NCBI GenBank assembly: GCA_947632735.1
Contig: CANRQG010000002.1
Coordinates: 1 to 37,722, forward strand
DNA: 37,722 nt
Direction: 5' to 3'
Source: an uncultured Bacilli bacterium
GTDB lineage: Bacteria > Bacillota_I > Bacilli_A > RF39 > UBA660
Shown here: piece after piece, positions 12,106 to 27,537 of the stretch
How positions within the stretch are numbered: position 1 is the stretch's first letter
Layout of the letters: each line of letters begins with the position of its first letter
Position numbers and translations under genes: made by a program
Notes under the pieces: generated by a model
Databases searched by the model: none
Told to the model about the DNA's origin: nothing
Seen by the model: only the letters and a program-made list of their open reading frames with translations

Positions 12106-12133
12106 GATTTTATAGAATAAAAAGGGTGATATA

Positions 12134-13600: not shown

Positions 13601-13619
13601 TAGAAAGGGGTAATGTCCA

Positions 13620-15331: not shown

Positions 15332-15346
15332 AATAAAAATAAAATG

Positions 15347-15375: not shown

Positions 15376-15407
15376 TATTTTAAGATATTGAAAGGATGTG
15401 AAAGCTA

Positions 15408-15575
15408 ATGAAAGCAGCAACAGGAGAATTAAACTTAACAGTAATTACTCTTATTGCAATAGCAGCAGTAATTGGTTTCTTTTGGATGATGTGGCCAAGT
15501 ATTCAAAATGCAATTAATACTCAATGGGCTAATATCTCTAGTGACCACGGTATGGTAATTGTTGAAAGAAGATAG
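15408..15575 (+). CDS. Flp-like mini-pilin (55 aa), not in the ORF track
   Basis: The sequence is MKAATGELNLTVITLIAIAAVIGFFWMMWPSIQNAINTQWANISSDHGMVIVERR. It has a short polar leader ending in Gly, a ~22-residue hydrophobic helix and a short tail. It sits where flp sits in tad loci (after tadC, before a pseudopilin-like gene). It has an AAAGGA RBS and its own consensus promoter. The Flp GxxxxEY motif is not present. Confidence 0.55.
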   Translation: MKAATGELNLTVITLIAIAAVIGFFWMMWPSIQNAINTQWANISSDHGMVIVERR

Positions 15576-15586
15576 AGGTGGAATAA

Positions 15587-16051
15587 ATGCGTGATGCTTA
15601 TGGTGGAATAGTTAACATAACAATTATTGTCGTTTTTTTAGTCATTGTTTCTGGTTATTTAGCCTTTAATGTTAATTATACTAAAGCCTTCAGATTAAAA
15701 AATAAAATTATTTCCGTTTTAGAGGAATATGAAGGCTCAGGCTATCGAAATAGTCAAAGTACAGCTAGGACAAAAATAAGAGAATATGCTAGTCAAATTG
15801 GTTATAATACCAATAAGCCAAAAGTTGATGGTACTGGCTGGGTTCAAGATGATGTTGGTTACTGCATAAGATTCATTGAAAAAACAGGTAGTAGTGATTC
15901 TATCGTAAATGAACAGACAGTGGGAAAGAAAAGAGGCTATTTTGAAGTTGTTACCCAAATTAATATAAATATTCCAATTATAAATAATATTATGGGGCTA
16001 AGTATATTCCAAGTAAGTGGCTCAACTAATACAATGGATGCCGTTCTCTAA
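15587..16051 (+). CDS. TadE/pseudopilin-like protein
   Basis: 154 aa. MRDAYGG is followed by the ~21-residue hydrophobic helix IVNITIIVVFLVIVSGYLAF, then a soluble domain. It lies directly after the mini-pilin gene. Confidence 0.4.
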   Translation: MRDAYGGIVNITIIVVFLVIVSGYLAFNVNYTKAFRLKNKIISVLEEYEGSGYRNSQSTARTKIREYASQIGYNTNKPKVDGTGWVQDDVGYCIRFIEKTGSSDSIVNEQTVGKKRGYFEVVTQININIPIINNIMGLSIFQVSGSTNTMDAVL

Positions 16052-16068
16052 TGGAAAGGTGAAAAATA

Positions 16069-17094
16069 ATGAATGTAATAATATGTAATGAACAGCAAGA
16101 AAGATTATCCACATTAGATGTGGATATAATAAAAAATATTACTGGTATATTTGAGCCAATAGAAATAGTAGAAATGTTTAAAAACTTTTTCTACAGTAAA
16201 ATGATAATAGATGTTACCGCTATCAAGCATTATACAGAAACAAAAAGTTATGAAATTATTTCTAAAGGACTAGATCCTGATAAAATAATTTTTTATTTGC
16301 CAGACGGTAGTTCCCTATGTACGCCTAGTTTCTTAGCGAATTTAGTTAAGTTAGGTATATATAATTTTACGACTAATTTAGATGGTATAAAAATTTTATT
16401 AAAAAGGTCTAATACTTTAAAAGATGTTGAAAGCATAGTAAAACTCGGAAGAGAAACAACCAATTATACTAGTTTTTCTACATCCAGTACCAGCGATTCT
16501 GTTGCCACTCAAAGTTATAGCAGTAATTCAATTGTTATAGGCTTTAAAAATGTAACTGATCACGCAGGTGCTACTACTCTAATTTATATGTTAAAAAAAG
16601 AATTAGATTCTTCTTTAGGTAAGAATGCTACCGTAGCAATAGAAGTAGATAAAAATGACTTCTACCTATTTAATGATAAAGATATGATATCTACTAGGTT
16701 ATCAGATGTAAGAGCAGCAATTACAAAATTAAATAAAAAAGTTGTTCTAATAGACTTAAATAATTCTAGTGATACTGGTATGTGTTCAGCTGTATTTTAC
16801 TTAGTTGAACCTAGTACTTTAAAGTTAAATAAATTAATTAGAAGAAATAAATCAGTTTTTATGAATTTGAAAAATAATAAAGTTGTTCTTAATAATAGTA
16901 TGCTCGCAACGAATGATATAGCTGATTTTGAAAATGAAGCTAATATTAAAGTTTTTTTCAATATACCGCCACTTGATGAAAGAAAAAGGAATGGTATATT
17001 AAATGATTTTTTAGTTAAAATAGGCTTACTAGACAAGCCTATATCCCAGTTTAAAGGTAATTCAGGAAAAATATTTGGCTTATTTAGACGATAA
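16069..17094 (+). CDS. TadZ/CpaE-like protein (receiver-like N-domain plus ParA/MinD-like domain with degenerate Walker A)
   Basis: 341 aa. The N-terminal beta-alpha pattern (VIICN...MIIDV...IIFYL...LGIYNF) is receiver-like. In the C-terminal half, IVIGFKNVTDHAGATTL occupies the KGGxGK(T/S) position (nt 16543-16578). VVLIDLNN and AVFYLVEPS match the ParA/MinD layout. Confidence 0.45.
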   Translation: MNVIICNEQQERLSTLDVDIIKNITGIFEPIEIVEMFKNFFYSKMIIDVTAIKHYTETKSYEIISKGLDPDKIIFYLPDGSSLCTPSFLANLVKLGIYNFTTNLDGIKILLKRSNTLKDVESIVKLGRETTNYTSFSTSSTSDSVATQSYSSNSIVIGFKNVTDHAGATTLIYMLKKELDSSLGKNATVAIEVDKNDFYLFNDKDMISTRLSDVRAAITKLNKKVVLIDLNNSSDTGMCSAVFYLVEPSTLKLNKLIRRNKSVFMNLKNNKVVLNNSMLATNDIADFENEANIKVFFNIPPLDERKRNGILNDFLVKIGLLDKPISQFKGNSGKIFGLFRR

Positions 17095-17098: not shown

Positions 17099-17128
17099 TT
17101 GACAAGAATTACTATTTAATATTATAAT
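17099..17128 (+). promoter_or_regulatory. sigma-A type promoter for the first VirB2/pilin-like gene
   Basis: TTGACA (17099-17104), an 18-nt spacer, then TATAAT (17123-17128). Confidence 0.6.
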
Positions 17129-17150: not shown

Positions 17151-17459
17151 ATGAATACAGATGCCTGCGGTGGATTAGGTCCAATAGTAAGTGTTATAAA
17201 AAGAGGTATTTTTCCACTAGTTCAAATTGGTATTCCAATACTTTTAATTGTTTTTGGAACAATTGATTTAGGTAAAGCCGTTATTTCTAGTGATGAAAAA
17301 GAAGTAAAACAGGCTCAAGGAAGATTAATTAAACGTTTTATTTATGCAGCTGCCGTATTCTTTGTAGTTACTCTTGTTTCTGTAGTTATGGGTATCATAG
17401 CTAAAGGTGGAGAAGGAGATACTACTAGTTGGCAGTCTTGTTGGAACTCAATTGAGTAG
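17151..17459 (+). CDS. pilin-like conjugal-transfer (VirB2/TrbC-like) small membrane protein, paralog 1
   Basis: ATG 17151 follows AAGGAGAGG, and the ORF-track start at 17127 has no RBS. It is 102 aa with two hydrophobic helices flanking DLGKAVISSDEKEVKQAQGRLIKRFIYAAAVFFV. It is a clear paralog of 19034..19537. The pattern recalls the pilin-like conjugal-transfer proteins of Firmicutes/Mollicutes ICEs (from memory). Confidence 0.5.
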   Translation: MNTDACGGLGPIVSVIKRGIFPLVQIGIPILLIVFGTIDLGKAVISSDEKEVKQAQGRLIKRFIYAAAVFFVVTLVSVVMGIIAKGGEGDTTSWQSCWNSIE

Positions 17460-17460
17460 T

Positions 17461-17490
17461 AAATAGCAAAGCTTTGCTATTTTTTTTTTC
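17461..17490 (+). terminator. rho-independent terminator
   Basis: atagcaaa (17463-17470) pairs with tttgctat (17473-17480). A 9-10 nt T-run follows. Confidence 0.75.
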
Positions 17491-17509
17491 AAAAAATTAA
17501 TTTACCCCA

Positions 17510-17538
17510 TTGCTCAAAGCAAACGAATGTATTATAAT
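17510..17538 (+). promoter_or_regulatory. candidate sigma-A promoter upstream of the DUF1016 gene
   Basis: TTGCTC (17510-17515), a 17-nt spacer, then TATAAT (17533-17538). This would give a ~200-nt leader containing two palindromes. Confidence 0.45.
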
Positions 17539-17665
17539 AAAATTGTGGTAGAGATGTATATATGAATGAAAATAAATTAGAAACCATTTCAAATTTTTTG
17601 AAAAAATAATAATTGTATTATACAAAATCACTAGTTGTTTAAAAGCTTTTAGATAACATATTACG

Positions 17666-17683
17666 ATATTGGCAAGCCAATAT
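17666..17683. repeat. 18-bp palindrome (8-bp arms)
   Basis: atattggc aa gccaatat, with perfect arms. Confidence 0.8.
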
Positions 17684-17706
17684 TAGAGTTGATAAAAAGA
17701 GTTTAA

Positions 17707-17734
17707 TAATTTTGCAGACGCGTCTGCAAAATTA
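17707..17734. repeat. 28-bp perfect palindrome abutting the RBS of the DUF1016 gene, a possible operator
   Basis: taattttgcagacg|cgtctgcaaaatta. All 14 positions pair. It is centred on an MluI-like acgcgt core and ends 4 nt before AAAGGAGG. Confidence 0.85.
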
Positions 17735-17750
17735 AAAAGGAGGAATTAAA

Positions 17751-18770
17751 ATGTTGGCAACTGAAGTGAAAGATTTTAAAACTACTATAAATGATATAGT
17801 ATCAAAAATCGAAGAAACACAATTAGAAATATTTCAATCAGCCAATGTAAATGTAATGGATTTGTATTTTTATATTGGAAAAGTTATTGATGATAGAGTA
17901 AAATGGGGAAATAAGTTTGTAGAAGAATTATCTATTGAAATAAAACTTAAGTTTCCTAATACTAAAGGCTATTCTCCTAGAAATCTTCATAATATGAGAA
18001 AATATTATTTGTCTGTTAAAGATGATGAAAAATTAAAAGAATATTCTTATAAAATTCCTTGGTCACATAATTCAATAATAATGGATCGAGTTAAGGACAA
18101 TAATCAAAAAATATGGTATATAAAAGAAACTTATAATAATGGTTGGAGTTATGATTATTTAGAAACTCAAATAAGAAGAGACGCATATGGGAGACAAATT
18201 CTTGGTGATAAACCTAATAATTTTAAACTAACACTTCTACAACCGCAAAGCTCTTTAGCAAAAGAAATTATGAAAGACCCTTATATATTTGATGTTGGTG
18301 CACTGCGCGAGAATTTTGTAGAAAGAGATATTGAACAAGCAATGATAGATAGAATTAAGATGACATTGTTAGAATTAGGGAACGGTTTTAGTTTTATTGC
18401 TAATCAATATAGAGTTACAGTTAATGATGAAGAAAATTTTATCGATTTATTGTTTTATCATACGAAATTGCATTGTTATATTGCTATTGAACTTAAAAAT
18501 AAAAAGTTTATACCAGAATATGCAGGAAAAATGAATTATTATTTATCTGCACTAGATGATATGCTAAAAACAGAGCTAGATAATCCATCTATAGGTATTA
18601 TACTTGTCAGAAATAAAAATAAATTAAATGTGGAATATGCATTAAGAGATATAAATAAACCAATTGGAGTTAGCTCATATGAACTATCGGAATATTTGCC
18701 ACCTGAAATCTTAAAACAATTACCAACTGAAGAAGAATTAAATTTGCATATTGATTTAGAAAATAAATAG
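17751..18770 (+). CDS. DUF1016 / YhcG-like PD-(D/E)xK nuclease-fold protein
   Basis: 339 aa. The C-terminal half contains IDLLFYHTKLHCYIAIELKNKKF, a D...E-x-K core as in the YhcG/DUF1016 family from memory. It has a strong RBS and is flanked by ~290 and ~260 nt of non-coding DNA. Confidence 0.65.
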   Translation: MLATEVKDFKTTINDIVSKIEETQLEIFQSANVNVMDLYFYIGKVIDDRVKWGNKFVEELSIEIKLKFPNTKGYSPRNLHNMRKYYLSVKDDEKLKEYSYKIPWSHNSIIMDRVKDNNQKIWYIKETYNNGWSYDYLETQIRRDAYGRQILGDKPNNFKLTLLQPQSSLAKEIMKDPYIFDVGALRENFVERDIEQAMIDRIKMTLLELGNGFSFIANQYRVTVNDEENFIDLLFYHTKLHCYIAIELKNKKFIPEYAGKMNYYLSALDDMLKTELDNPSIGIILVRNKNKLNVEYALRDINKPIGVSSYELSEYLPPEILKQLPTEEELNLHIDLENK

Positions 18771-19033
18771 TGTCATTTTTATTTAAAGAATGGCTATGTA
18801 TGGAAGCAAATGAATATAAAGCTTTTAAAGTTTTTTATAAAGAATCTGTAAGAAATAATATGTCTGATATAGAACAAGAAAACCTGCTAAAAAAGTATAT
18901 ACCTCTTATGGCTAGAACAAAATAAAGAAATTGCAAAACACTAAAATTAACGTAAATAGTAATTGTTTGACATTGCTATTTCCTTTTTCTTTTGATATAC
19001 TTATTATGTTAGATTATTTATGGAGTGGTCTAA

Positions 19034-19537
19034 GTGAAAAAAATACTTGTTTTATTACTACTCACATTGAGCTTTTTTCTTGTTACTCCAAAACAAGTAG
19101 AAGCTTTAGAAGTAAAAGAAATTAATGAAAATTCATTAATTAATTTTCATAGTGTTATAAAAAATAATACTTTATTATTAGACGTAGAAGAGGAAGAAAA
19201 CGTTGACGAATGGATGAATGACTATAATCAAGAACAAAATTGTAGTAATGATGACTCTCTTCTTGGTAACCCAAATGACCCTGACTCAGTTGCCTGGTTA
19301 TTACAAAAAATACTTAATTATACTAGAGTAATTGGACCAATATTAGTAGTAATACTTAGTAGTATTGAATTTGCTAAAGTAATTATTCAAAGTGATGATG
19401 AAGCTATGGGTAAAGCTCAAAAGAAGCTTATTAATAGACTTATTTTAGTAGCGGCATTATTTTTTGTTCCTACTTTAGTTGAACTTATCCTACAAATTTT
19501 TGGAATTACAGGAGATCCAACCTGTGGCATAAAATAA
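19034..19537 (+). CDS. pilin-like conjugal-transfer (VirB2/TrbC-like) protein, paralog 2, with signal peptide and acidic N-extension
   Basis: It has a GTG start after GGAG and is 167 aa. It has a signal peptide (LLLLTLSFFLVTPKQVEA) and an acidic linker. The following region is alignable to 17151..17459 (VIGPILVVILSSIEFAKVIIQSDDEAMGKAQKKLINRLILVAALFFVPTLV). Confidence 0.5.
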   Translation: MKKILVLLLLTLSFFLVTPKQVEALEVKEINENSLINFHSVIKNNTLLLDVEEEENVDEWMNDYNQEQNCSNDDSLLGNPNDPDSVAWLLQKILNYTRVIGPILVVILSSIEFAKVIIQSDDEAMGKAQKKLINRLILVAALFFVPTLVELILQIFGITGDPTCGIK

Positions 19538-19562
19538 TTTAGAAAGTGGAGGTGAACTGAGA

Positions 19563-21725
19563 ATGACAGACTTAAAAAAAGCTGATTTTGTAAGTAACTT
19601 ATTTAGAAGTGTTGGTGCTTTCTTTGCTCGACCAGCATTTTGGTTACTTGGCATAGTTTATCAAATCTTTTTTAACATCTCAACAGCTGACTTATTTAAT
19701 AATGCAACTGTTTTAGGTTTTTATAAAAGAGTTCAGTTAATTATCGGTGTATTTATGATTTTTCAGTTGGCAGTCACTATATTAAAAGGTATAGTTAGTC
19801 CAGACGAAGCCTTTGGTTCAAAATCAGGCTTAGGTACAATAATTACTAGAGTTATTTTTGCTCTTGTTCTATTGACAGTTCTAGTACCAGTAAGTATTCC
19901 AGGAGCAACCACCGAATATGAAAGACAAATAAATAATAATGGTTTGCTTTTTGGTACCTTATATTCTTTGCAGCACCGATTATTATCGAATAATACAATT
20001 GGAAGATTAGTTTTAGGTACGTCAAGTGGCGCCACTAGTGATGGTAGTTCAAACACAGGTCTGACCGGTGCCGATAAACAGGCAGAAGAGCTGTCAAGAT
20101 CTTCCCGAATATTCACTTCAACAGTTCTAAAAGGTTTTGTTCGTATTAATTTAGTGCCTGAAGGAGATCGTCAGGATACATCAGATGGCAAAACTGAAGA
20201 AATGGATAATGATAATAGAGTTTGTAAAGATATCGATGATGATATCTTGTCAGCTTATACTAAAATAGATGCTGATCCAGGTGAAATACTTGACCTTATC
20301 AACGAAAAATGTACTATAAGTAAAAATGAGCCTTGGTATAACGGAAGTAGAGATAAATATGTCTTTGCCGAAAACGTTTTTATTGGAGCTATCGTTGGTT
20401 TTGTATTTGTATTTATTTTACTAAGTTTCTGTTTTGACATTGCCATTCGTGCTGTTAAATTAGCTGTTCTTAGAATAATTGCGCCAATTCCAATAATTAG
20501 TTATATGGACCCAAAAGGTGGTAAAGATGGTGCCTTAAATTCTTGGATAAAAGCTCTTACTTCAACTTATATTGATTTATTCGTAAGATTAGCTGTTATC
20601 TATTTTGTAATATATCTAATTCAAGATATGATAGTAAATGGTGTTGCTATGAACAACGCTAGTGGTATGGTTGGAATACTTTCTGTAATAGCTATTTGGA
20701 TAGGTCTATTTATGTTTGCTAAGGAAGCACCAAAGTTTATTCGTCAAGTTTTAGGTATGAAGGAAGACAGTGGCAAAGGAATATTCGGTGGTTTACGTGG
20801 AGCAGCAAATATAACATCAAGAGCTGCTGCCATAGGCGCAACAGCTCTTGGTGCAGTTGGTTCTTTCAATGCTTCAAGAAGAGCTAGTAAAATGGCCGAT
20901 GACGCAAATGGTGTTACTGAAAAACTAGAAAGTGCCAATTTTGCTAGAAAATTAATGAATAAAGGTAAACACGTAGTTGCCGGCATTTTGGGTGGAGCCG
21001 GTGAAGTAGCAACTGGTGTTAAAACAGCTGCCACTTCAAAAGAACAGCCTCTTTCAAAGACTATGGAAAATATTCAAAAGCGTAATGCTAAAGCTATTTC
21101 TAGAGGAGCAGCAGGCTCTACAACATTTGGGCGTGCTGGAACTAGTATGTATAGATTAGTTGTTGGTGAAGATAAATATGAACAAGAGGCAAGACAAGTT
21201 GAACATCTTAAAGGTATTTCTACAACAGGAAAAGATTTGAAAGAATACCTAGAAGATCGTGCTGTAAAAAAAGGTGGTTCATTAAAGTTGGCTGGCTATA
21301 GGACCGATGCAACAGGAAAAAGAATTGGATTTACTACTACATTAGATGAATGGAAAAATGCATTTGGTATTGCTCAACAACGTGGTAATGCAACCTTCAC
21401 TGTTGCTGGTCAAACCTTTGAAACATTTGGAAGTGAAGCGAAAAGTATTGATGGACAATTAGTAACAGCTGCCGGAAAACAATGGGCTAACATAGAAAAA
21501 AGCAAAGGTGCTAGTATGGATCCGGCACTTAGACAAAAAGTTGAATCATTTGAAGATTCAGGTGGAGCAGCTCAACTTGCTAATCCTGCCGATATATTTG
21601 ATTCTGATGCTGTTAAGAATGTTGCTGTTAAAGCCGGTGGTGATGCTGATAGAATTGAAAGATCTGCAGCTTACCAAAAACATAAGGCAGATCACGGAGC
21701 TACTGGCGGTAATAAGGGAGTGTGA
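19563..21725 (+). CDS. VirB6-like (TcpH/PrgH-position) polytopic T4SS channel protein with long Ala/Gly-rich C-terminal domain
   Basis: 720 aa with multiple TM helices across aa ~20-400 and a hydrophilic ~300-aa C-terminus. It lies immediately upstream of the PrgI-like and VirB4 genes. The call is by architecture and synteny. Confidence 0.45.
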   Translation: MTDLKKADFVSNLFRSVGAFFARPAFWLLGIVYQIFFNISTADLFNNATVLGFYKRVQLIIGVFMIFQLAVTILKGIVSPDEAFGSKSGLGTIITRVIFALVLLTVLVPVSIPGATTEYERQINNNGLLFGTLYSLQHRLLSNNTIGRLVLGTSSGATSDGSSNTGLTGADKQAEELSRSSRIFTSTVLKGFVRINLVPEGDRQDTSDGKTEEMDNDNRVCKDIDDDILSAYTKIDADPGEILDLINEKCTISKNEPWYNGSRDKYVFAENVFIGAIVGFVFVFILLSFCFDIAIRAVKLAVLRIIAPIPIISYMDPKGGKDGALNSWIKALTSTYIDLFVRLAVIYFVIYLIQDMIVNGVAMNNASGMVGILSVIAIWIGLFMFAKEAPKFIRQVLGMKEDSGKGIFGGLRGAANITSRAAAIGATALGAVGSFNASRRASKMADDANGVTEKLESANFARKLMNKGKHVVAGILGGAGEVATGVKTAATSKEQPLSKTMENIQKRNAKAISRGAAGSTTFGRAGTSMYRLVVGEDKYEQEARQVEHLKGISTTGKDLKEYLEDRAVKKGGSLKLAGYRTDATGKRIGFTTTLDEWKNAFGIAQQRGNATFTVAGQTFETFGSEAKSIDGQLVTAAGKQWANIEKSKGASMDPALRQKVESFEDSGGAAQLANPADIFDSDAVKNVAVKAGGDADRIERSAAYQKHKADHGATGGNKGV

Positions 21726-21730
21726 TATAA

Positions 21731-22039
21731 GTGAATTATTTAATTCCTGCTAATACTAAGAAAGGACAATTAATACTAGGTATCTTTAGGCCATTCGACT
21801 TAATCCTCTTTAGTTGTGGTATCTTAGCAACCATTATCTTGCTTGCTTTCTTACCACTTTCATCAACACTAGTTACTATACTAGTCTTAAGTCCTGCTAT
21901 CGTAACTGGCTTTCTCGTTATGCCAGTTCCATATTATCATAATATGCTAAATATTATCGTTGAACTGTATGAGTTTTTGACTAATAGACAAACATATCGT
22001 TGGAAGGGATGGTGTTATAGATATGGCCAAAAAAAATAG
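21731..22039 (+). CDS. PrgI/VirB3-like small membrane protein
   Basis: 102 aa with a GTG start. It has two adjacent TM helices after the short N-terminal IPANTKKGQLILGIFRPFD. It lies directly upstream of and overlaps the VirB4 N-terminal ORF. Confidence 0.5.
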   Translation: MNYLIPANTKKGQLILGIFRPFDLILFSCGILATIILLAFLPLSSTLVTILVLSPAIVTGFLVMPVPYYHNMLNIIVELYEFLTNRQTYRWKGWCYRYGQKK

Positions 22040-22571
22040 TAGTGGTTTTACCGAAGATTGGTTACCTTTGCGAGCAATTCAAAATAATATGATTATCACT
22101 AAAGATAACCAAAAAGTTAGTGGTGTTAAAATAACCCCTCGAAATATTTTTATTCTTGATAATGATATGCAAAATAATATTTTAATTAGTTTAAGAAATT
22201 TTTATAATACTTTGGACTTTGAATTTTGGTTAATAGTAGCGGATAGACCAGTAGATATTTCCGTTTATATGTCACAAATGCAACTATTACTTAATGAAAC
22301 TTCCTCACCAGCTATTAGAAAATTAATTATGCAAGACATTGACAAAGGAGAAACATTTATTCGTAACAATGTTGTTGATACAGAATATTACTTTATGTTT
22401 AAAACCAAAGATGAAGATTTATTGCAAAAAAGAATAAGAATGATGATAAATGGGTTAGCGCAGTGTGGACTTAACGCATCCCAAATTAGTAACTCTGATT
22501 TAAGACTCGTTCTTGAAAACTTCCTAAACGGTGGAAATACAACTGAATTTGGGACGGTGATGCCAGTATGA
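22023..22571 (+). CDS. virB4: VirB4-family ATPase, N-terminal domain encoded as a separate ORF
   Basis: 182 aa. EDWLPLRAIQNNMIITKDNQKVSGVKITPRNIFILD matches the typical N-terminus of Firmicutes VirB4 (PrgJ/TcpF-like) proteins from memory. It ends in an ATGA overlap with the next ORF. Confidence 0.55.
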   Translation: MAKKNSSGFTEDWLPLRAIQNNMIITKDNQKVSGVKITPRNIFILDNDMQNNILISLRNFYNTLDFEFWLIVADRPVDISVYMSQMQLLLNETSSPAIRKLIMQDIDKGETFIRNNVVDTEYYFMFKTKDEDLLQKRIRMMINGLAQCGLNASQISNSDLRLVLENFLNGGNTTEFGTVMPV

Positions 22572-24358
22572 GTACAGGTTTAAGAAGTCAAATTGCGCCA
22601 AAAGGCCTACATTTTTCACCAAGTGATTTTATAATTAGTGATAAATACGCAACCATTATGACCGTTGTATCATATCCAAAATACATTATGCCCGGTTACC
22701 TATCATCACTAACTAATATGTCTGGTATTAAAGTTGTTGTTAAACATATACCAGTTCCTTTCCAAGAAATGTCAAAAATGCTTAATAAACAAGTAGCTGA
22801 ATTAAAAGAAAGATACCAAAATGAAAGAGACCAAACCGTTCGTGAAAGAGTAAGACAAGATGCCGAAAGTTTGGAATACTTTACCTCTATGCTTGCTGGT
22901 AGTCAAGCTAGAATATTCGACTTCCAAATGCACATTATGATAACAGCCGATACTAAAGAAGAATTGGAATTAAAGAAAGTAAATGTCAAAAACTACTTAG
23001 ATGCTATGGAACTAAGAGCCGTTTCTCTACGTTTTGAACAAGAAAAAGTCTTAAAATCCATTATTCCAATTTTCCCATCACAAGATGTTGAACAAAGAAT
23101 TGGAACCCCAATTCCCTCTGTTACTATTTCCGCTATGTATCCTTTTATCTTTGATAGTATAAAAGACCCAGGACTTTCAACTTTACTTGGTGTTGACTTT
23201 TCTGGCGGTGTAATTTTATTCAACCAATTCTTATATAAAATAAGAAAAGAAAATAACCGTAACAATGCCAATATGATTATTCTTGGTACATCAGGTTCCG
23301 GAAAATCAACTGCGGCAAAACTTATGTTAAGAACTCACATTAGAAACGGTTGTCAAATAGTTATTGTCGACCCCGAAGATGAATATCGAGAAATAGCAAG
23401 AACCTATGGAGGCGATATCGTCGACATAGCTAAAGGTGGCGAATTTGGTTTAATTAACCCTCTAGAAGTTGTCATCGATGCTGATGAAGAAGAAATAAAA
23501 CAGGGCCTTGGCTATACCGTATTAACAAGAACACTTCAATTTCTTAAAGCCTTTATGAAATATTATGACCCATCTATTGAAGAAGATGTCTTAACAATGT
23601 TTAGTGAAATAGTACAAGATACTTATAAACGTTTTGGAATAGACTTCAATACCGATTTTTCTAGATACACATCAAGTGATTATCCAACCTTTAGTGATGT
23701 TTATGCCACTATTAGAGGTCGCTTAATGTCAATGACAGAACAAACCCAAGAAAGAGATATTATGGAACGTCTAGAACTAAAAGTAAGACCAATTACTAAA
23801 GAACTAAAATTCTATTTTGATGGTCATACAACAATTAGACGTGATAGTGACTTTATGGTCTTTAACATCAAAGAACTAATGAATAGTGACTCTACAGTTA
23901 GAAATGCCTTATTCTTTAACGTTTTAAAATATGCTTGGGGTCTATGTCTTGATTATAATGTTGATACCGTATTAATGATTGATGAAGCCCACGTCCTTTT
24001 AGGTGACAACAACGCTCTAGGAGCAGACTTCCTAGCTCAAGTTCAAAGACGTGCTCGTAAATACAATACTGGTACAATTATCATTACTCAACAACCAAGT
24101 GACTTTGCTGACCAAGCTGTTATTACTCAGGGTAAAGCTATTTTCGATAACTCATCTTATTACCTAGTAATGGGTCTTAGAAAACAAGCTGTTGAAGACT
24201 TGGCTTTATTAATAGATTTAAATGATAGTGAAAAAGAAAGTATTAAACACTATTCTCAGGGCGAAGCTTTATTCGTCTGTGGAAATAGACGTATGAGAAT
24301 AAATATTGCAGTTACCCAAGAAGAATTAGATTCCTTTGGTAGTGGTGGAGGACTATAA
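22568..24358 (+). CDS. virB4: VirB4-family T4SS ATPase, middle and C-terminal ATPase domains
   Basis: 596 aa. Motifs are Walker A GTSGSGKST (nt 23285-23311) and Walker B VLMIDEAH (from nt 23969). The segment IISDKYATIMTVVSYPKYIMPGYLSSL is typical of the VirB4 middle region. The combined length with 22023..22571 is 778 aa, the size of a full VirB4. Confidence 0.85.
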   Translation: MSTGLRSQIAPKGLHFSPSDFIISDKYATIMTVVSYPKYIMPGYLSSLTNMSGIKVVVKHIPVPFQEMSKMLNKQVAELKERYQNERDQTVRERVRQDAESLEYFTSMLAGSQARIFDFQMHIMITADTKEELELKKVNVKNYLDAMELRAVSLRFEQEKVLKSIIPIFPSQDVEQRIGTPIPSVTISAMYPFIFDSIKDPGLSTLLGVDFSGGVILFNQFLYKIRKENNRNNANMIILGTSGSGKSTAAKLMLRTHIRNGCQIVIVDPEDEYREIARTYGGDIVDIAKGGEFGLINPLEVVIDADEEEIKQGLGYTVLTRTLQFLKAFMKYYDPSIEEDVLTMFSEIVQDTYKRFGIDFNTDFSRYTSSDYPTFSDVYATIRGRLMSMTEQTQERDIMERLELKVRPITKELKFYFDGHTTIRRDSDFMVFNIKELMNSDSTVRNALFFNVLKYAWGLCLDYNVDTVLMIDEAHVLLGDNNALGADFLAQVQRRARKYNTGTIIITQQPSDFADQAVITQGKAIFDNSSYYLVMGLRKQAVEDLALLIDLNDSEKESIKHYSQGEALFVCGNRRMRINIAVTQEELDSFGSGGGL

Positions 24359-24385
24359 AATAAAAAAGAAGTAAGGTGATGTATT

Positions 24386-26749
24386 ATGTCATATGAAAGT
24401 AGACGAAATAATAACGAAATTAATACGCCTAAAACCCATAATAAGACTAATAATACAAGCCTACCTTCACCTAAAGAAAGAGAAAGAAGACAACGAGAAA
24501 AATCTTCATCCAAAGCCATTAAAGGAGCCGCAACAGGAGCCGCTAATGCCTTTGCTGGCCCTGTAGGTGGCAAAGCCGTTGACTTAGCTTCAAAAACAAA
24601 AACAGGTCAACAACTTTTAAATAAAGGTGGCCAAGTTTTAAATAAAATGCCTGGTGTAGGAAAAACTTTAAATAAAATAGATAATCTGACTAATAAAGCT
24701 AAACCTATACCATCTAAAGAAAATAATAATATTAATCAAGCTACTCCCACTAATAATAACCCTAATTCTGATGAACAAAATAATATTCCTAATCAAAATA
24801 ATAATATAGAAAACAAAGGCCCAGGCTATCCACCATCTCCAGTTGCCGAACAAAGTGATTCAGAAGCTGATACAAACTCTTCTCCTCGAATAGCCGGTCT
24901 AGGACCTTTTTCAAGAAAAAATAATTCCAAGGATAAAGAAAATTCTAATGAAGAAGAAACAACCACTGCTCCAGGAAAAGTAGCTGGTCGTTTTATGATG
25001 TCAATTGGTGCTAAAATAGTTCTCCTAGTCGCTCCAATAGTTATCATAATTGTTATAATTGTTTCCTTAGTTGGTAGTGTAGTAGGTGGTGTTGGTGACT
25101 TTGTTGACGCCTTAGGCGCAATGTTTACCGCTGGTGGCGAAACTGGTGATGTTGAAGTTGCGGCCCCTACAAAAGAACAAGAAGATTTTTATAATCGCAT
25201 AAATGATGTCAAATTAGAATATCAAGCTAATGGTAAAAGTGTTGACCCTTTAAAAATTGCCGCTGTCTATCGTATCTTTTTCTCAGAAAAAGTTAAATAT
25301 GGTTATAAAGATATGACCGAAGAAATAATCAAAGATATTGCCGACTGTATGTTTATGGGAAATAGTTACGATGAAGACGTTTTTAAAGAAAATCTAACTG
25401 AATATCTAATACCTAAATATTATCCTAAATCATCTGATGATGAAAGAGAAGAAATAGTTAATGAAATTTTTGAATATATGGAAAGTTACTATAGCCTTAT
25501 TGGTGAAGAAACTGATTCTGCTTGTGCTTCCGTTGGAACTTGTATCTATGATATAAAAGGCTTTTACATACCTGTTACAGGTAATATAAATAAAAGTATG
25601 AACATTTCTAATTTAATGGTTCGTCTAATGGAATGTGGTCCTCCCTATGGAACAGGAAATGATAATACCCCAATAGACCAGCCTCTAGTTCCATTTGAAG
25701 ACTACATTATGGGTGTAGCTTACGGTGAAGTTTATACGACCTATGACGATGAAGCCATCAAAGCCCAAATGGTCGCCGCTAGAAGTTATGCTCTATCCCG
25801 TGCAACCTCTGTTGGTAACGCAGGCGGCAAAAAATTAGAACAAGAAGATGGCGAGTGGATATTACAAATATCATCTTGTGTTGCCGACCAAGTCTTTTGT
25901 AATGTTGATGAAGGCTGTTCCTATATGGGTGGTGGCGATGGTCAAGGTGGTATTGTTCGTAGTGGTATTATTCCTGGTGCTGTTAGAACTATGCCAGCCT
26001 TGCCAGCTGACCATAAATTACGTGCTTTAGCCGCTGAAGTTCAGGGCGAAGTATTAGTAAATAATCAGGGTAACATTATGTATACCGGTTTTGGTAGTGG
26101 AACCCAACGAAAAATGAATGAGTTAGCTCAAAATGGTTTAAATTATCGGCAAATTTTAATGGAACTTTACGGCAGTGCTGGAGCAACTGACATCGAAAAA
26201 GGAAATTGTAATACTGGCGACTCTTGTAGTTCTTTCTCATCATCAGGACCTTATGCTAGCTGGAAACAATATACTGGTCCGTGGACCGATGTTCCTCTAG
26301 GTAAAAGTGACCAAACAATTAAGAGTGCTGGTTGTTTAGTCACATCAGTTGCTATGCTAATCGCTAAAAGTGGCGTACCTACCAAAATCGAGGACTTTAA
26401 CCCAGGAACTTTCGTTGAATTCTTAAATAAAAACAATGGCTTTTCAGGTGCCAACTTCCTTTGGGCTAGTGTCTCTTCAGTTGCGCCATCCTTTACATAT
26501 CAAGGAAAAGTAAACGTCACTGGAAAAACGAAAAAAGAAAAAAAGAATATCCTAGAAGGACTTCTTCAAAGTGGTAACTATGTAGTAGCGGAAGTAAAAG
26601 GTTCAACAGGTCAGCACTGGGTTGCGATAGATGGCATATCTGCTGATGGAAAAATTTTAATGATGGACCCAGGTAGTGATGCAACCGATATGTGGGGTCA
26701 ATATTCGTGGAAAAATACCAGCCAATTTTCTTATTTTAGTGTTAATTAA
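24386..26749 (+). CDS. membrane-anchored bifunctional cell-wall hydrolase (SpoIID/LytB-like domain plus papain-like Cys peptidase), VirB1/PrgK analog
   Basis: 787 aa. It has a disordered N/K-rich N-terminus and a TM (aa ~205-235). The segment DYIMGVAYGEV...EAIKAQMVAARSYALSRA (A460 at nt 25763) resembles the SpoIID/LytB motif. The C-terminal KSAGCLVTSVAM (Cys650, nt 26333) and GQHWVAIDG (His744, nt 26615) suggest a Cys/His peptidase. Confidence 0.6.
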   Translation: MSYESRRNNNEINTPKTHNKTNNTSLPSPKERERRQREKSSSKAIKGAATGAANAFAGPVGGKAVDLASKTKTGQQLLNKGGQVLNKMPGVGKTLNKIDNLTNKAKPIPSKENNNINQATPTNNNPNSDEQNNIPNQNNNIENKGPGYPPSPVAEQSDSEADTNSSPRIAGLGPFSRKNNSKDKENSNEEETTTAPGKVAGRFMMSIGAKIVLLVAPIVIIIVIIVSLVGSVVGGVGDFVDALGAMFTAGGETGDVEVAAPTKEQEDFYNRINDVKLEYQANGKSVDPLKIAAVYRIFFSEKVKYGYKDMTEEIIKDIADCMFMGNSYDEDVFKENLTEYLIPKYYPKSSDDEREEIVNEIFEYMESYYSLIGEETDSACASVGTCIYDIKGFYIPVTGNINKSMNISNLMVRLMECGPPYGTGNDNTPIDQPLVPFEDYIMGVAYGEVYTTYDDEAIKAQMVAARSYALSRATSVGNAGGKKLEQEDGEWILQISSCVADQVFCNVDEGCSYMGGGDGQGGIVRSGIIPGAVRTMPALPADHKLRALAAEVQGEVLVNNQGNIMYTGFGSGTQRKMNELAQNGLNYRQILMELYGSAGATDIEKGNCNTGDSCSSFSSSGPYASWKQYTGPWTDVPLGKSDQTIKSAGCLVTSVAMLIAKSGVPTKIEDFNPGTFVEFLNKNNGFSGANFLWASVSSVAPSFTYQGKVNVTGKTKKEKKNILEGLLQSGNYVVAEVKGSTGQHWVAIDGISADGKILMMDPGSDATDMWGQYSWKNTSQFSYFSVN

Positions 26750-26760
26750 AGGAGAAATCT

Positions 26761-27537
26761 ATGCGCAAAAAAAGAACTTATATCATATTGTTAATTATTC
26801 TAGTAGCTTATTTTTTAGTTCTCTATCTTTTTATTGGAAAAGATAATCTAAAAAAAGAGTCTTTTTCCACAACTATTATGGTAGGGGATAATACCGTTTG
26901 GGCTCTTTCCGGTAAAAGATGGCTAAATATTACTAAACAAAGCTCTATTGATAGCTTAAACTGGCAGAAATTTACTGTCTTTGTCGATAATGAGAACCTA
27001 GGTAGAAACTATGTTTGGCACGATGATAAGTGGTATATTTTCGATAAAAATAAAAATGCTGTTGTAAAAACTGGTAAATTTCTTGCTTATCAAGCTAATT
27101 ATAAAATAAACGTTTTAAACTATGAAGAAGAAAATATTACTGACCTAACTTATGTAAATAAAGTTCTAGAAGAAAATAATCTGTCTTCACCGTTCACAGC
27201 CAGTAGTAAAACAACCCTTGACATTGATAATGACAATATCAAAGAAGACTTTTACATAATTAGTAATGCCTTTGCTGACGAATTTGTCCCTGATACCTTA
27301 TTTTCCATTGTCTTTATGGTTAAAAATGACAAAATCTATTATATTTATAAAGATATTTCCACTAATGACTTAGACTATAAGGAATGTAAACCATACTTTA
27401 ATTACTTTTTAGATATTGATGATGATAAAACTTATGAAATGATTCTTAGTTGTGGTAGATATAGCATTAAAGAAGAAATTAATATGCTCTATAGCTATAC
27501 CAAAGATGGTTTTAAAATAATTATCTCTAATCAATAA
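26761..27537 (+). CDS. N-terminally anchored hypothetical protein in the PrgL/TcpC (VirB8-like) position
   Basis: 258 aa with a single N-terminal TM and a beta-rich ectodomain. It follows the hydrolase gene as prgL follows prgK in pCF10. I saw no motif-level support. Confidence 0.3.
   Translation: MRKKRTYIILLIILVAYFLVLYLFIGKDNLKKESFSTTIMVGDNTVWALSGKRWLNITKQSSIDSLNWQKFTVFVDNENLGRNYVWHDDKWYIFDKNKNAVVKTGKFLAYQANYKINVLNYEEENITDLTYVNKVLEENNLSSPFTASSKTTLDIDNDNIKEDFYIISNAFADEFVPDTLFSIVFMVKNDKIYYIYKDISTNDLDYKECKPYFNYFLDIDDDKTYEMILSCGRYSIKEEINMLYSYTKDGFKIIISNQ

What the first reader, a model, noticed from the sequence alone, without database searches (positions are those of the whole stretch)
17151..27537. 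Orphan T4SS core (VirB2-like, VirB6, VirB3, VirB4, hydrolase) without a coupling protein or relaxase
Seen: the module runs from the VirB2-like genes to the PrgL-position ORF and is bounded by housekeeping DNA a few hundred bp downstream. It contains only one NTPase family (VirB4). There is no FtsK/VirD4-like P-loop protein, no relaxase-like or Rep-like ORF, and no oriT-like large inverted repeat that I could see.

Established: DNA-conjugating T4SSs need a T4CP and a relaxase. T4CP-less VirB4 systems include the H. pylori ComB DNA-uptake system and the archaeal Ced/Ted DNA-import systems.

Inference: this may be a Firmicutes counterpart that imports DNA. Alternatively it may be a protein or cell-wall-fragment export channel. 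A third option is that its missing partners are encoded in trans.
Basis: inference. Interest (0 to 1): 0.75.

Follow-up and report, generated by a model that had tools for sequence, protein, structure and literature searches.

The report
Conserved gut-bacterial secretion machine, split by rearrangement
The "orphan" type IV secretion genes are one half of a complete, strongly conserved chromosomal secretion-plus-pilus system of uncultured genome-reduced gut bacteria (RF39-like Bacilli); its coupling ATPase was moved elsewhere in this genome by a rearrangement and is not missing.

Summary
The window holds no coupling protein (T4CP) or relaxase.

The "orphan" reading fails at the level of the system. 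In 73 of 73 related species genomes that reach far enough, a VirD4-type T4CP follows the 258-aa gene directly. In this lineage a two-breakpoint rearrangement cut the locus at that gene's stop codon. An intact T4CP (752 aa) lies behind a PBP gene on other contigs of the same metagenomes, at the same coverage.

The VirB4 split is not a lesion. It is present in 94 of 94 loci, both halves have dN/dS of 0.02-0.11, and it matches the known TrsD/TrsE layout.

The module belongs to a one-strand cluster of about 22 genes (surface proteins, sortase, Tad-like pilus, T4SS, T4CP). The cluster recurs in RF39-like gut MAGs and has no relaxase or integrase.

It is best read as a chromosomally fixed Gram-positive T4SS that exports rather than imports. 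It most resembles the relaxase-less, pilin-bearing T4SS of Patescibacteria. The substrate is unknown.

The parts
3320..4879 (+). First gene of the conserved cluster: 519-aa polytopic membrane protein with a DUF4352 domain
   Evidence: Pfam PF11611. It occupies the same position upstream of the Tad module in the related metagenome loci L091-L167.
4883..6658 (+). 591-aa membrane-anchored surface protein (Ig-like, Big_3 and DUF6273 domains)
   Evidence: Pfam. Conserved in position. It is a paralogue (25% identity) of the 398-401-aa DUF6273 gene that follows the T4CP in relatives.
6667..7482 (+). Sortase, class-B-like
   Evidence: PF04203 at 30.6 bits. TIGR03064 at 59.7 bits, below its cut-off. 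Conserved in position. No LPXTG motif was seen in the neighbouring proteins.
7451..10765 (+). 1104-aa secreted, Cys-rich protein of unknown fold
   Evidence: No Pfam or NCBIfam hit. Conserved in position at 26-40% identity.
10790..17094 (+). Tad/Flp-like pilus module: DUF5411 (10790), CpaB/RcpC-like (11290), CpaF/TadA/VirB11-superfamily ATPase (12134), two TadB/TadC-like membrane proteins (13620, 14522), a 55-aa Flp-like pilin (15408), a TadE-like pseudopilin (15587) and a 341-aa conserved protein (16069)
   Evidence: T2SSE at 98.9 bits, RcpC at 29.6 bits, DUF5411 at 150 bits. The ATPase's best NCBIfam hits are VirB11 and the TadA-family conjugal-transfer-associated ATPase. The TadB, TadC, Flp and TadE names are inferred from position, size and hydrophobic N-termini. 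Synteny with the T4SS holds in 60-71 of the 80 species loci and in the 34 long metagenome loci mapped.
17099..17128 (+). Consensus sigma-70-type promoter (TTGACA-18-TATAAT, 12 of 12) in front of the first VirB2-like gene
   Evidence: A match of at least 11 of 12 lies in the same intergenic spot in 76 of 96 related loci, and 12 of 12 in 27.
17151..17459 (+). VirB2-like protein a (102 aa from this ATG): two hydrophobic helices around a conserved DLGKAVIxSDEKEVKxAQxRLIKR loop, with conserved Cys near both ends
   Evidence: Alignment A1. It is a paralogue of the second VirB2-like gene (hhalign probability 99%, E 7e-18).
17461..17489 (+). Hairpin plus T-run directly after VirB2-like gene a (weak terminator or attenuator)
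   Evidence: A perfect-stem hairpin with a T-run is present in 47 of 91 related loci.
17490..18988 (+). Lineage-specific insertion: YhcG/DUF1016 PDDEXK nuclease (17751-18770), a 51-aa ORF and a 28-bp perfect palindrome (17707-17734). It is not part of the conserved system.
   Evidence: Pfam 1e-59. Absent from all 80 species loci. Insertion ends mapped against L006. Palindrome.
19034..19537 (+). VirB2-like protein b (167 aa): signal peptide, variable region, then a VirB2-like helical hairpin
   Evidence: PF18895 at E 0.0039 in the window. 15 of 25 family members hit PF18895, best E 2e-7. The model is a two-helix hairpin at pLDDT 65.
19563..21725 (+). VirB6/TrbL-like channel protein with a long hydrophilic C-terminal extension (720 aa)
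   Evidence: PF19597 TrbL_4 at 34.6 bits. Weak NCBIfam hits to the pLS20_p028 and Mbov_0396 ICE membrane proteins.
21731..22039 (+). VirB3-position protein (102 aa, two predicted transmembrane helices)
   Evidence: Identified by position, size and topology only. No HMM hit. No match to the N-terminus of an unsplit VirB4. Conserved at 53-85% identity.
22023..22571 (+). VirB4 N-terminal domain as its own gene (TrsD-like, 182 aa)
   Evidence: NF045975 positions 98-277. PF26593 TraC-like. It aligns to residues 48-220 of an unsplit 892-aa VirB4 at E 1e-14. dN/dS 0.04-0.11.
22568..24358 (+). VirB4 ATPase body (TrsE-like, 596 aa). Its start overlaps the upstream stop codon (ATGA).
   Evidence: NF045975 at 357.6 bits, positions 295-891. 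Walker A GTSGSGKS in 94 of 94 loci. dN/dS 0.02-0.04. 82-97% identical in 80 species genomes.
24386..26749 (+). VirB1-analogue cell-wall hydrolase (787 aa): membrane anchor, SpoIID-like domain and C39-like peptidase domain
   Evidence: PF08486 at 38.6 bits and PF13529 at 25 bits, both above their cut-offs.
26761..27537 (+). 258-aa membrane-anchored all-beta protein with DxDxDG-like motifs. It is the last T4SS gene before the breakpoint.
   Evidence: Model at pLDDT 91.5. No PDB neighbour: best E 0.026, TM-score at most 0.24. Conserved in 61 of 75 species loci.
27528..27537 (+). Rearrangement breakpoint: the 10-nt sequence TAATCAATAA (the end of the 258-aa gene) is found at both new junctions
   Evidence: In some strains an ISNCY element sits exactly here.

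Best explanation
Window 17151-27537 is the channel, pilin and VirB4 half of a complete, chromosomally fixed, vertically inherited Gram-positive (MPF-FATA-type) type IV secretion system.

**Shown**
- The system is conserved in RF39-like genome-reduced gut Bacilli as one co-oriented cluster of about 22 genes. Their order is membrane and surface proteins, sortase, Tad-like pilus, two VirB2-like genes, VirB6, VirB3-like, VirB4 N-terminal gene, VirB4 body, hydrolase, 258-aa protein, VirD4-type T4CP, DUF6273 protein.
- In this lineage a two-breakpoint rearrangement cut the cluster at the stop codon of the 258-aa gene. The site is also used by an ISNCY element.
- The intact T4CP and DUF6273 genes were left behind a PBP gene elsewhere in the genome. 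The T4SS is therefore not orphan.
- The VirB4 'split' is the normal TrsD/TrsE-like two-gene form. It is under strong purifying selection.
- No gene of the cluster is a relaxase or an integrase.

**Inferred**
- The machine exports a substrate chosen by the T4CP, by cell contact. It does not import DNA.
- A conserved strong promoter drives the first VirB2-like gene.
- VirB4, with the VirB3-like protein, VirB6 and the hydrolase, builds a channel through membrane and wall, and possibly a VirB2-type filament.
- The Tad-like pilus and the surface proteins make the contact with the other cell.
- The T4CP, with its invariant acidic ...FFDDFFDN tail, recruits the substrate.
- Whether that substrate is protein or relaxase-independent DNA is open.
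For: **T4CP**
- A T4CP follows the 258-aa gene directly in 73 of 73 species loci. It hits PF02534 at E 1e-54.
- The lineage's own T4CP, P0124, is found in samples ERZ27249363 and ERZ27249368 at coverage 4.55 and 4.37. The VirB4 contigs of the same samples have coverage 4.94 and 4.06.
- P0124 scores above the NF045973 cut-off.

**Rearrangement**
- The ancestral intergenic sequence and the 10-nt TAATCAATAA lie at both new junctions.
- The reciprocal ancestral adjacency, PBP then a p154-like gene then L33 then EF-P, is seen in the related contig L174.
- An ISNCY transposase sits at the junction in some strains.

**VirB4 split**
- The split is universal, with overlapping stop and start codons, in 94 of 94 loci.
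- It is collinear with an unsplit VirB4.
- dN/dS is 0.02-0.11 at dS of about 1 or more.
- The TrsD layout is known from the pGO1 subclass and from Patescibacteria (PMC12102498).

**Conservation and inheritance**
- Cluster synteny holds across loci.
- At least 583 matching stretches were found in species-representative genomes.
- VirB4 is more conserved than the flanking RmuC: mean pairwise distance 0.13 against 0.20.
- VirB4 and RmuC distances correlate (Mantel r 0.32; 1 of 999 permutations reached it).

**Other**
- The VirB2-like genes belong to PF18895.
- The promoter in front of the first VirB2-like gene is conserved.
Against: - The link between P0124 and the window's genome rests on shared samples, matching coverage and the junction sequence. 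No closed genome supports it.
- Other RF39 strains co-occur in those samples.
- Whole genomes could not be scanned, so a relaxase elsewhere is not excluded.
- No expression or functional data exist.
- The VirB3 assignment is positional.
- The 258-aa protein does not have the VirB8 fold.
- The window's own VirB2-like hits are below Pfam's cut-off.
- The fold search for the VirB2-like model was non-specific.
- The correlation with the flanking gene is only moderate.
- Assignment to RF39 rests on two named relatives.
Confidence: 0.8

Rival explanations
1. One reading: a T4CP-less DNA-import machine, a Firmicutes counterpart of H. pylori ComB or the archaeal Ced/Ted systems.
For: - The window holds no T4CP or relaxase.
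- A pilus module lies next to the T4SS, as in the Ups/Ced pairing cited in PMC12102498.
- There is a weak NCBIfam hit to CedD, 46 bits.
Against: - The system has a tightly linked VirD4-type T4CP in 73 of 73 relatives. An intact copy exists in this lineage.
- The CedD score is far below its cut-off of 600.
- The same lineage carries separate N_methyl pilin genes, which may belong to a ComG-type competence pilus (own inference), next to the relocated T4CP.
Confidence: 0.06
2. An ordinary conjugation module. The cluster would be the mating-pair apparatus of an integrative conjugative element, or serve elements that supply the relaxase and oriT in trans. Alternatively it would move DNA without a canonical relaxase, as mycoplasma ICEs do.
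For: - The T4CP passes the curated cut-off of a conjugal-transfer family, NF045973.
- The best VirB4 model is the mycoplasma ICE VirB4, and the VirB6-like protein hits ICE and pLS20 membrane-protein models.
- Mycoplasma ICEs transfer chromosomal DNA with a minimal VirB set (PMC12857230).
- The nearest outside relatives sit in Erysipelotrichales genomes and on a Mycoplasmatota plasmid.
Against: - No relaxase, integrase or oriT-like repeat was found in the cluster, in the window or in about 100 related loci.
- Gene order and the downstream neighbours are conserved across species.
- VirB4 is more conserved than a flanking housekeeping gene, and its distances correlate with that gene's. This pattern is unlike the patchy distribution of mobile elements.
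Confidence: 0.2
3. A decaying remnant: the rearrangement and the split VirB4 mark a dead system.
For: - The locus is physically broken in this lineage.
- A nuclease cassette has inserted between the two VirB2-like genes.
- An IS element is active at the junction.
Against: - All genes are full length.
- Against the closest relative, dS is about 1 or more while VirB4 dN/dS is 0.02-0.04.
- The relocated T4CP keeps its Walker A motif and the invariant C-terminal tail.
- It also keeps its ancestral upstream intergenic sequence.
- Five metagenomes carry the identical VirB4 body.
Confidence: 0.02

Closest known systems
Chromosomal T4SS of Patescibacteria/Saccharibacteria (Southlakia epibionticum ML1; Wang et al. 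2023 as summarised in PMC12857230; survey PMC12102498)
   Same: - The host is a monoderm with a reduced genome.
- The system is chromosomal, widely conserved and has no relaxase nearby.
- VirB2-like (PF18895) pilin genes lie next to virB4.
- A separate TrsD-like gene lies next to virB4, together with VirB3, VirB6 and cell-wall hydrolases.
- The system is accompanied by a type IV-class pilus.
   Different: - Here the T4CP is tightly linked (73 of 73 loci). In Patescibacteria it is usually distant, and it is non-essential in ML1.
- There are two pilin paralogues, not arrays of up to 11.
- The pilus module is Tad-like and physically fused to the T4SS cluster.
- A sortase and large surface proteins are part of the cluster.
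- The host is a Bacillota lineage.
- The nearest named VirB4 relatives are Bacillota and Mycoplasmatota.
- Essentiality and an epibiotic lifestyle are unknown.
MPF-FATA conjugative T4SSs of Firmicutes (pGO1/pIP501 TrsD-TrsE type; C. difficile CTn2 CD1110/CD1115 type)
   Same: - VirB4 hits NF045971 at 184.6 bits.
- The T4CP scores above the NF045973 (CD1115) cut-off.
- The system has a VirB6-like protein, a bifunctional wall hydrolase and a two-gene VirB4 as in pGO1.
   Different: - No relaxase, oriT or integrase was found.
- The location is fixed and chromosomal.
- VirB2-like genes are present. The 2025 review says these are otherwise absent from Gram-positive systems.
- The hydrolase uses a SpoIID-type domain.
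- No VirB8-fold protein was identified.
- A Tad module is attached.
Mycoplasma ICE conjugation apparatus (CDS5 T4CP, CDS17 VirB4, CDS16 VirB6-like; NF045975, NF045889)
   Same: - It gives the best-scoring VirB4 model (357.6 + 57.6 bits) and a VirB6-like hit.
- It lacks a relaxase.
- The host lineage is related to the Mollicutes.
   Different: - The scores are below the equivalog cut-offs (590 and 70).
- The mycoplasma system lies on a mobile ICE with a DDE recombinase and has no hydrolase.
- The cluster here has a wall hydrolase, pilins and a Tad module, and is not mobile.
T4CP-less uptake systems (H. pylori ComB; archaeal Ced/Ted)
   Same: A VirB4/VirB6/VirB2-type core on the chromosome without a relaxase. 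A pilus acts as helper in Ced.
   Different: Those systems are defined by the lack of a VirD4-type T4CP. This system has one.
T4SS with an accessory type IV pilus (IncI plasmid R64 thin pilus, as cited in PMC12102498)
   Same: A type IV-class pilus module is encoded beside a T4SS and is thought to stabilise cell contact.
   Different: Those systems are on mobile elements of diderm bacteria and have relaxases. Here the pilus is Tad-like, the host is a monoderm and the cluster is fixed in the chromosome.

Membership tests
Gram-positive (MPF-FATA) T4SS | VirB4 ATPase with intact nucleotide-binding motifs | tested here: met
   P-loop_TraG, AAA_10 and DUF87 domains. NF045975 and NF045971 hits. Walker A and B motifs conserved in 94 of 94 loci.
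Gram-positive (MPF-FATA) T4SS | VirD4/TcpA-type coupling protein | tested here: met
   Absent from the window. Adjacent in 73 of 73 relatives. Intact in this lineage on other contigs of the same samples. NF045973 at 315 bits, above the cut-off of 250.
Gram-positive (MPF-FATA) T4SS | VirB6-like polytopic channel protein | tested here: met
   PF19597 TrbL_4 at 34.6 bits, above the cut-off of 27.
Gram-positive (MPF-FATA) T4SS | VirB3-like small membrane protein next to VirB4 | tested here: inconclusive
   The 102-aa protein with two predicted transmembrane helices is in the right place and is conserved. It has no HMM hit and no match to an unsplit VirB4 N-terminus.
Gram-positive (MPF-FATA) T4SS | VirB1-like cell-wall hydrolase | tested here: met
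   SpoIID at 38.6 bits and Peptidase_C39_2 at 25 bits, both above their cut-offs. The domain types differ from the usual SLT + CHAP pair.
Gram-positive (MPF-FATA) T4SS | VirB8-like (NTF2-fold) protein such as PrgL, TraM or TcpC | tested here: not met
   The 258-aa 'PrgL-position' protein models confidently (pLDDT 91.5) as a transmembrane helix plus an all-beta domain. It has no PDB neighbour and no profile hit to PDB. Other genes were not tested for this fold.
Self-transmissible conjugative element (ICE or plasmid) | Relaxase (MOB family) with oriT | tested here: not met
   No relaxase or Rep family in any window ORF. Every conserved cluster gene in about 100 related loci maps to a window gene, or to the L006 T4CP and DUF6273 genes; all of these were scanned without a relaxase hit. 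There is no conserved large inverted repeat. The rest of the genome could not be scanned.
Self-transmissible conjugative element (ICE or plasmid) | Integrase or recombinase and a variable insertion site | tested here: not met
   No integrase and no tRNA. Gene order and the downstream neighbours (rhodanese, VTT, RmuC) are the same in 60-68 of 73 species loci. Distances correlate with the flanking RmuC.
T4CP-less DNA-uptake T4SS (ComB, Ced/Ted) | No VirD4-type coupling protein belongs to the system | tested here: not met
   A T4CP is part of the conserved cluster. The CedD model scores 46 bits against a cut-off of 600.
Patescibacteria-type chromosomal T4SS | VirB2-like pilin genes beside virB4 in a monoderm | tested here: met
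   There are two paralogues (hhalign 99%). 15 of 25 family members hit PF18895, best E 2e-7. The window's copy scores 17.7 bits, below the cut-off of 26.6. The helical-hairpin model has low confidence.
Patescibacteria-type chromosomal T4SS | Separate TrsD-like gene next to virB4, chromosomal location, no relaxase nearby | tested here: met
   for TrsD. for location and content. The definition comes from PMC12102498.
Patescibacteria-type chromosomal T4SS | VirB4 falls inside the Patescibacteria VirB4 clade | tested here: inconclusive
   No phylogeny was built. The named nearest relatives, at 29-33% identity, are Thomasclavelia, Solobacterium, a Mycoplasmatota plasmid and Desulfocucumis. This points to Bacillota ancestry.
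Patescibacteria-type chromosomal T4SS | Required for growth on a host cell | not testable with these tools
   RF39 is uncultured (PMC6784871, PMC13155120).
Mycoplasma ICE VirB4 (NF045975 equivalog) | Score at or above the curated cut-off of 590 bits | tested here: not met
   357.6 bits for the body and 57.6 bits for the N-terminal gene.
Tad/Flp pilus (neighbouring module) | CpaF/TadA ATPase, CpaB, TadB/TadC platform, Flp pilin, prepilin peptidase | tested here: inconclusive
   The ATPase (T2SSE, 98.9 bits) and CpaB (RcpC, 29.6 bits) pass their Pfam cut-offs. The platform proteins and pilins have no HMM hit. No prepilin peptidase is present in the window.

The most novel reading that the evidence does not exclude
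The Tad-T4SS-T4CP cluster would be a Bacillota counterpart of the essential Patescibacteria T4SS. On this reading it is a contact-dependent organelle, possibly with a VirB2-type filament on a Gram-positive cell. RF39 bacteria are genome-reduced and have many auxotrophies. They would use it to attach to other cells and exchange proteins, nucleic acids or nutrients with them. RF39 would then have a partner-dependent lifestyle.
Probability: 0.25. Interest if true: 0.85.

Novelty: new variant of a known kind. Interest (0 to 1): 0.58.

Why it matters
RF39 is a widespread, uncultured, genome-reduced order of gut Bacilli with many auxotrophies. Almost nothing is known of its biology (PMC6784871; PMC13155120).

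A 2025 review states that VirB2-type pilins and a T4SS needed for survival are known among monoderms only in Patescibacteria (PMC12857230). In the library searched, no paper that mentions RF39 connects it with a type IV secretion system or VirB4.

The cluster described here is a chromosomally fixed, relaxase-less T4SS under strong purifying selection. It carries VirB2-like genes, is fused to a Tad-like pilus module and is shared by hundreds of RF39-like species. It would be a second, independent case of this kind. It would also give a concrete handle on how these bacteria interact with other cells, for example as co-culture targets or as markers in metatranscriptomes.

There is a practical lesson as well. 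A '"missing" coupling protein in one genome can be a rearrangement artefact, and comparison with relatives resolves it.

Tried and rejected
- **PDB profile searches.** Profiles of the VirB2-like family (A2) and the 258-aa family (A3) gave no meaningful hit.
- **Fold search, 258-aa protein.** Foldseek of the confident model found only weak beta-propeller-like matches. The VirB8/PrgL idea was rejected for this gene.
- **Fold search, VirB2-like protein.** Foldseek of the low-confidence hairpin model returned generic membrane hairpins such as ATP synthase c subunits. The result is uninformative.
- **VirB3 as a fusion.** Comparing the VirB3-position protein with the N-terminus of an unsplit VirB4 gave nothing.
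- **Literature.** Searches linking RF39 with type IV secretion, VirB4 or pili found nothing relevant.
- **oriT candidate.** The 28-bp palindrome at 17707-17734 was rejected because it lies in an insertion that all relatives lack.
- **Assembly error or lesion.** This explanation for the VirB4 split was rejected. Five independent assemblies carry it, it is present in 94 of 94 loci, and dN/dS is low.
- **Other scans.** tRNA and Rfam scans were empty.
- **Taxonomy of the next VirB4 clades.** Two cluster look-ups gave only a few names.
- **CpaF distances.** CpaF distances did not correlate with the other genes. CpaF ORFs cut off at locus ends may be the reason (not checked).

Full report
**What is in the window**

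The window is low-GC DNA with nearly all genes on the + strand. Pfam and NCBIfam scans of every long ORF give the following layout.
- Housekeeping genes on the left: a Mur ligase and Ddl, 314-3153.
- A long block from 3320 to 27537.
- A 154-aa gene.
- Housekeeping genes on the right: L33 at 28123, EF-P at 28362, then S15, PNPase and others.

- Two small VirB2-like genes, 17151-17459 and 19034-19537.
- A VirB6/TrbL-like gene, 19563-21725.
- A 102-aa membrane protein with two predicted transmembrane helices, 21731-22039.
- A VirB4 encoded as two overlapping genes, 22023-22571 and 22568-24358.
- A SpoIID plus C39-like hydrolase, 24386-26749.
- A 258-aa gene, 26761-27537.

No ORF in the window matches a coupling protein, relaxase, Rep protein or integrase. 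tblastn with a relative's T4CP finds nothing. There is no tRNA or Rfam element.

Two things were not in the finding.
- A YhcG-type nuclease cassette sits between the two VirB2-like genes.
- A Tad-like pilus module lies immediately upstream. It includes a CpaF/VirB11-superfamily ATPase at 12134-13600.

**Who carries it**

The exact 596-aa VirB4 body occurs on five metagenome contigs of one study. Thousands of close homologues exist, nearly all 596 aa long. A scan of one genome per species found at least 583 matching stretches. The best 80 are 82-97% identical and come from gut MAGs of rabbit, ruminants, human, mouse and chicken.

Two of these are Mycoplasma sp. CAG:877 and Candidatus Faecimonas gallistercoris. 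These belong to GTDB genus CAG-877, order RF39 (PMC8035907). RF39 is an uncultured, genome-reduced order of Bacilli with many auxotrophies (PMC6784871; PMC13155120).

Outside this clade, identity falls quickly.
- Two rare sequences reach 41-44%.
- All other representatives are at 35% or below.
- The named ones are Thomasclavelia, Solobacterium, a Mycoplasmatota plasmid and Desulfocucumis.

**The coupling protein is not missing from the system**

Gene maps of the 80 species loci show a conserved order: Tad-like genes, VirB2-like a, VirB2-like b, VirB6, VirB3-like, VirB4 N-terminal gene, VirB4 body, hydrolase, 258-aa gene. A 730-808-aa gene follows in every locus that reaches far enough, 73 of 73.

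That gene is a VirD4-type T4CP. It hits PF02534 at E 1e-54, and also TraG-D_C and TrwB_AAD_bind. After it come a DUF6273 membrane protein, a rhodanese, a VTT-domain protein and RmuC. Only the window's lineage has the 154-aa gene, L33 and EF-P at this place.

A homologue search with the T4CP of the closest relative (L006) found P0124, 752 aa and 87% identical. P0124 lies on contigs from samples ERZ27249363 and ERZ27249368. These same samples hold the window's exact VirB4, and the coverage matches: 4.55 against 4.94, and 4.37 against 4.06. On those contigs the T4CP follows a PBP gene and is followed by the ancestral downstream block. P0124 scores 315 bits against NCBIfam NF045973 (VirD4-like conjugal transfer protein, CD1115 family), above the cut-off of 250.

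**The breakpoint**

- In the relative L006, the 258-aa gene ends ...CCAATAA and the T4CP leader begins TAGACAGTTT.
- In the window, the gene ends ...TAATCAATAA and is followed by the promoter region of the 154-aa gene.
- On the P0124 contig, the sequence TAATCAATAA-TAGACAGTTT follows the PBP side.

The last 10 nt of the 258-aa gene therefore sit at both new junctions. The reciprocal ancestral adjacency is preserved in a related contig, L174: PBP, then a 143-aa orthologue of the 154-aa gene, then L33, then EF-P.

This is a two-breakpoint rearrangement. Whether it was an inversion or a block transposition cannot be told from contigs. In some strains a 1.49-kb element sits exactly at the junction, flanked by a direct repeat. 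It encodes an ISNCY-family transposase (NF033594, 242.6 bits). Another contig has the same element joined to a different left flank (L173). The site is therefore a rearrangement hot-spot.

**The VirB4 split is the normal form**

- In 94 of 94 related loci the N-terminal gene and the body are separate. The stop and start codons overlap by 4 nt in 85 loci and by 1 nt in 9. The Walker A motif is invariant.
- The 182-aa product aligns to residues 48-220 of an unsplit 892-aa homologue (E 1e-14). The body aligns to residues 284-891 of the same protein.
- Against five relatives, synonymous sites are near saturation (dS about 1-2). dN/dS is 0.02-0.04 for the body and 0.04-0.11 for the N-terminal gene.
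- A separate gene homologous to the VirB4 N-terminus (TrsD) is known from the pGO1 subclass and is common in Patescibacteria (PMC12102498).

**The full system**

Metagenome loci centred on the pilus ATPase extend the conserved cluster upstream. The added genes are a DUF4352 membrane protein, an Ig/DUF6273 surface protein, a sortase, a protein of about 1100 aa, DUF5411, CpaB, the ATPase, two polytopic membrane proteins, a small pilin-like gene, one or two TadE-like genes and a 341-aa protein. The T4SS follows.

All of these genes are on one strand. None matches a relaxase or an integrase. Sporadic insertions occur at a few intergenic sites.

Two results fit vertical inheritance of a core function better than a mobile element.
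- VirB4 is more conserved than the flanking RmuC: mean pairwise distance 0.13 against 0.20.
- VirB4 distances correlate with those of RmuC (r 0.32; 1 of 999 permutations reached it), the T4CP (0.47) and the TadB-like gene (0.55).

**Components**

- *VirB2-like genes.* The two are paralogues (hhalign probability 99%). 15 of 25 members of the second family hit PF18895 T4SS_pilin (best E 2e-7). Both families have two hydrophobic helices around a conserved basic loop, and conserved cysteines near both ends. A shallow-alignment model is a two-helix hairpin at pLDDT 65. Its fold search was non-specific.
- *Expression signals.* A 12-of-12 sigma-70 consensus promoter precedes the first VirB2-like gene. 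A match of at least 11 of 12 is present in 76 of 96 loci. A hairpin with a T-run follows that gene in the window and in 47 of 91 loci. This pattern would fit a highly expressed structural subunit; that reading is an inference.
- *258-aa protein.* It models confidently (pLDDT 91.5) as a membrane helix plus an all-beta domain. It has no PDB neighbour, so it is not a VirB8/PrgL-type protein.
- *T4CP tail.* The T4CP ends in an invariant acidic and aromatic tail...FFDDFFDN, in all relatives and in P0124. It might be a docking site for a substrate or adaptor. That is an inference.

**Interpretation**

Shown:
- The system is a complete Gram-positive-type T4SS.
- It has VirB4, a T4CP and a VirB11-superfamily ATPase in one conserved cluster.
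- It is fixed in the chromosome and under strong purifying selection.
- It has no relaxase or integrase in the cluster.
- In this genome it is split by a rearrangement.

Inferred:
- The presence of a T4CP argues for export of a selected substrate by cell contact, not for ComB- or Ced-like import.
- The Tad-like pilus and the surface proteins would make the contact.
- The substrate remains open. It could be protein or other cargo, as proposed for Patescibacteria. It could also be DNA moved without a canonical relaxase, as in mycoplasma ICEs (PMC12857230).

**Comparison and novelty**

The closest functional analogue is the chromosomal, relaxase-less, VirB2-bearing T4SS of Patescibacteria. A 2025 review calls that system unique among monoderms (PMC12857230).

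By sequence, the parts sit among Bacillota and Mycoplasmatota MPF-FATA systems. The cluster differs from Patescibacteria in three ways.
- The T4CP is tightly linked.
- A Tad module is fused to the T4SS.
- A sortase and surface-protein genes are part of the cluster.

It differs from conjugative elements in lacking a relaxase and an integrase, and in its fixed position.

In the library searched, no paper that mentions RF39 connects it with a type IV secretion system or VirB4. I rate it a new variant of a known kind.

The absence of a relaxase stands at the level of the cluster, but it could not be tested genome-wide.

Noticed in passing
window 17490-18988: A cassette of about 1.5 kb is inserted between the two VirB2-like genes. 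It carries a YhcG/DUF1016 PDDEXK nuclease, a 51-aa ORF and a perfect 28-bp palindrome (17707-17734). It is absent from all 80 related species loci. The right end partly repeats the terminator's 3' half (TTGCTATTT...). The same intergenic spot holds other insertions in some relatives, for example a DUF6273-like gene in L161 and L164.
   Followed up: partly
window 27528-27550; L001 9163-10655; L173 4594-5880: An ISNCY-family element (428-aa transposase, NF033594 at 242.6 bits) is polymorphic at the junction between the 258-aa gene and the 154-aa gene. It is flanked there by the direct repeat AATCAATAAAATTCT. In another contig it is joined to an unrelated left flank (GDPD, SDR genes). This points to continuing IS-mediated rearrangement at the site.
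   Followed up: partly
L171 and L177, 1-7288 (upstream of the 154-aa gene and L33 in another relative): In a further related genome, the place upstream of the 154-aa gene holds a toxin-like set: two DUF4176 genes, a 1103-aa protein with an ADP-ribosylating exotoxin domain, and an ADP-ribosylglycohydrolase. The site upstream of L33 and EF-P is therefore a variable hot-spot in this clade.
   Followed up: no
P0124 residues 739-752; T4CP genes of L006-L085: The coupling protein ends in an invariant acidic and aromatic tail, ...(D/E)FFDDFFDN, after a long low-complexity linker that varies between species. It may be a docking motif. No partner was identified.
   Followed up: partly
window 26761-27537: The 258-aa protein models with high confidence as a membrane-anchored all-beta domain with no solved structural neighbour. 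It carries two conserved DxDxDG...E motifs. These motifs look like calcium-binding loops of beta-propeller repeats (own reading).
   Followed up: partly
window 17151-17459 and 19034-19537: Both VirB2-like families keep one cysteine before the first helix and one at the C-terminus. If both ends face outward, a disulfide could tie them together. This would loosely parallel the head-to-tail cyclisation of some VirB2/TrbC pilins (own knowledge). It is speculative.
   Followed up: no
window 12134-13600: The pilus-module ATPase scores best in NCBIfam against VirB11 (119 bits) and a 'TadA family conjugal transfer-associated ATPase' (105.6 bits), both below their cut-offs. With VirB4 and the T4CP, the cluster holds three secretion ATPases, like the VirB4/VirB11/VirD4 set of Gram-negative systems (own knowledge).
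   Followed up: no
L087 and L088 4139-5335: Two N_methyl (type IV pilin-like) genes lie a few kb upstream of the relocated T4CP in this lineage. They may be part of a separate competence-type pilus.
   Followed up: no
window 33987-36551: Downstream of PNPase lies a trio: two Tim44-like proteins and an SPFH/Band-7 protein. Zinc-ribbon motifs are found in all three: above the Pfam cut-off in the SPFH protein, weakly in the other two. The trio is conserved in related contigs (L171-L174).
   Followed up: no
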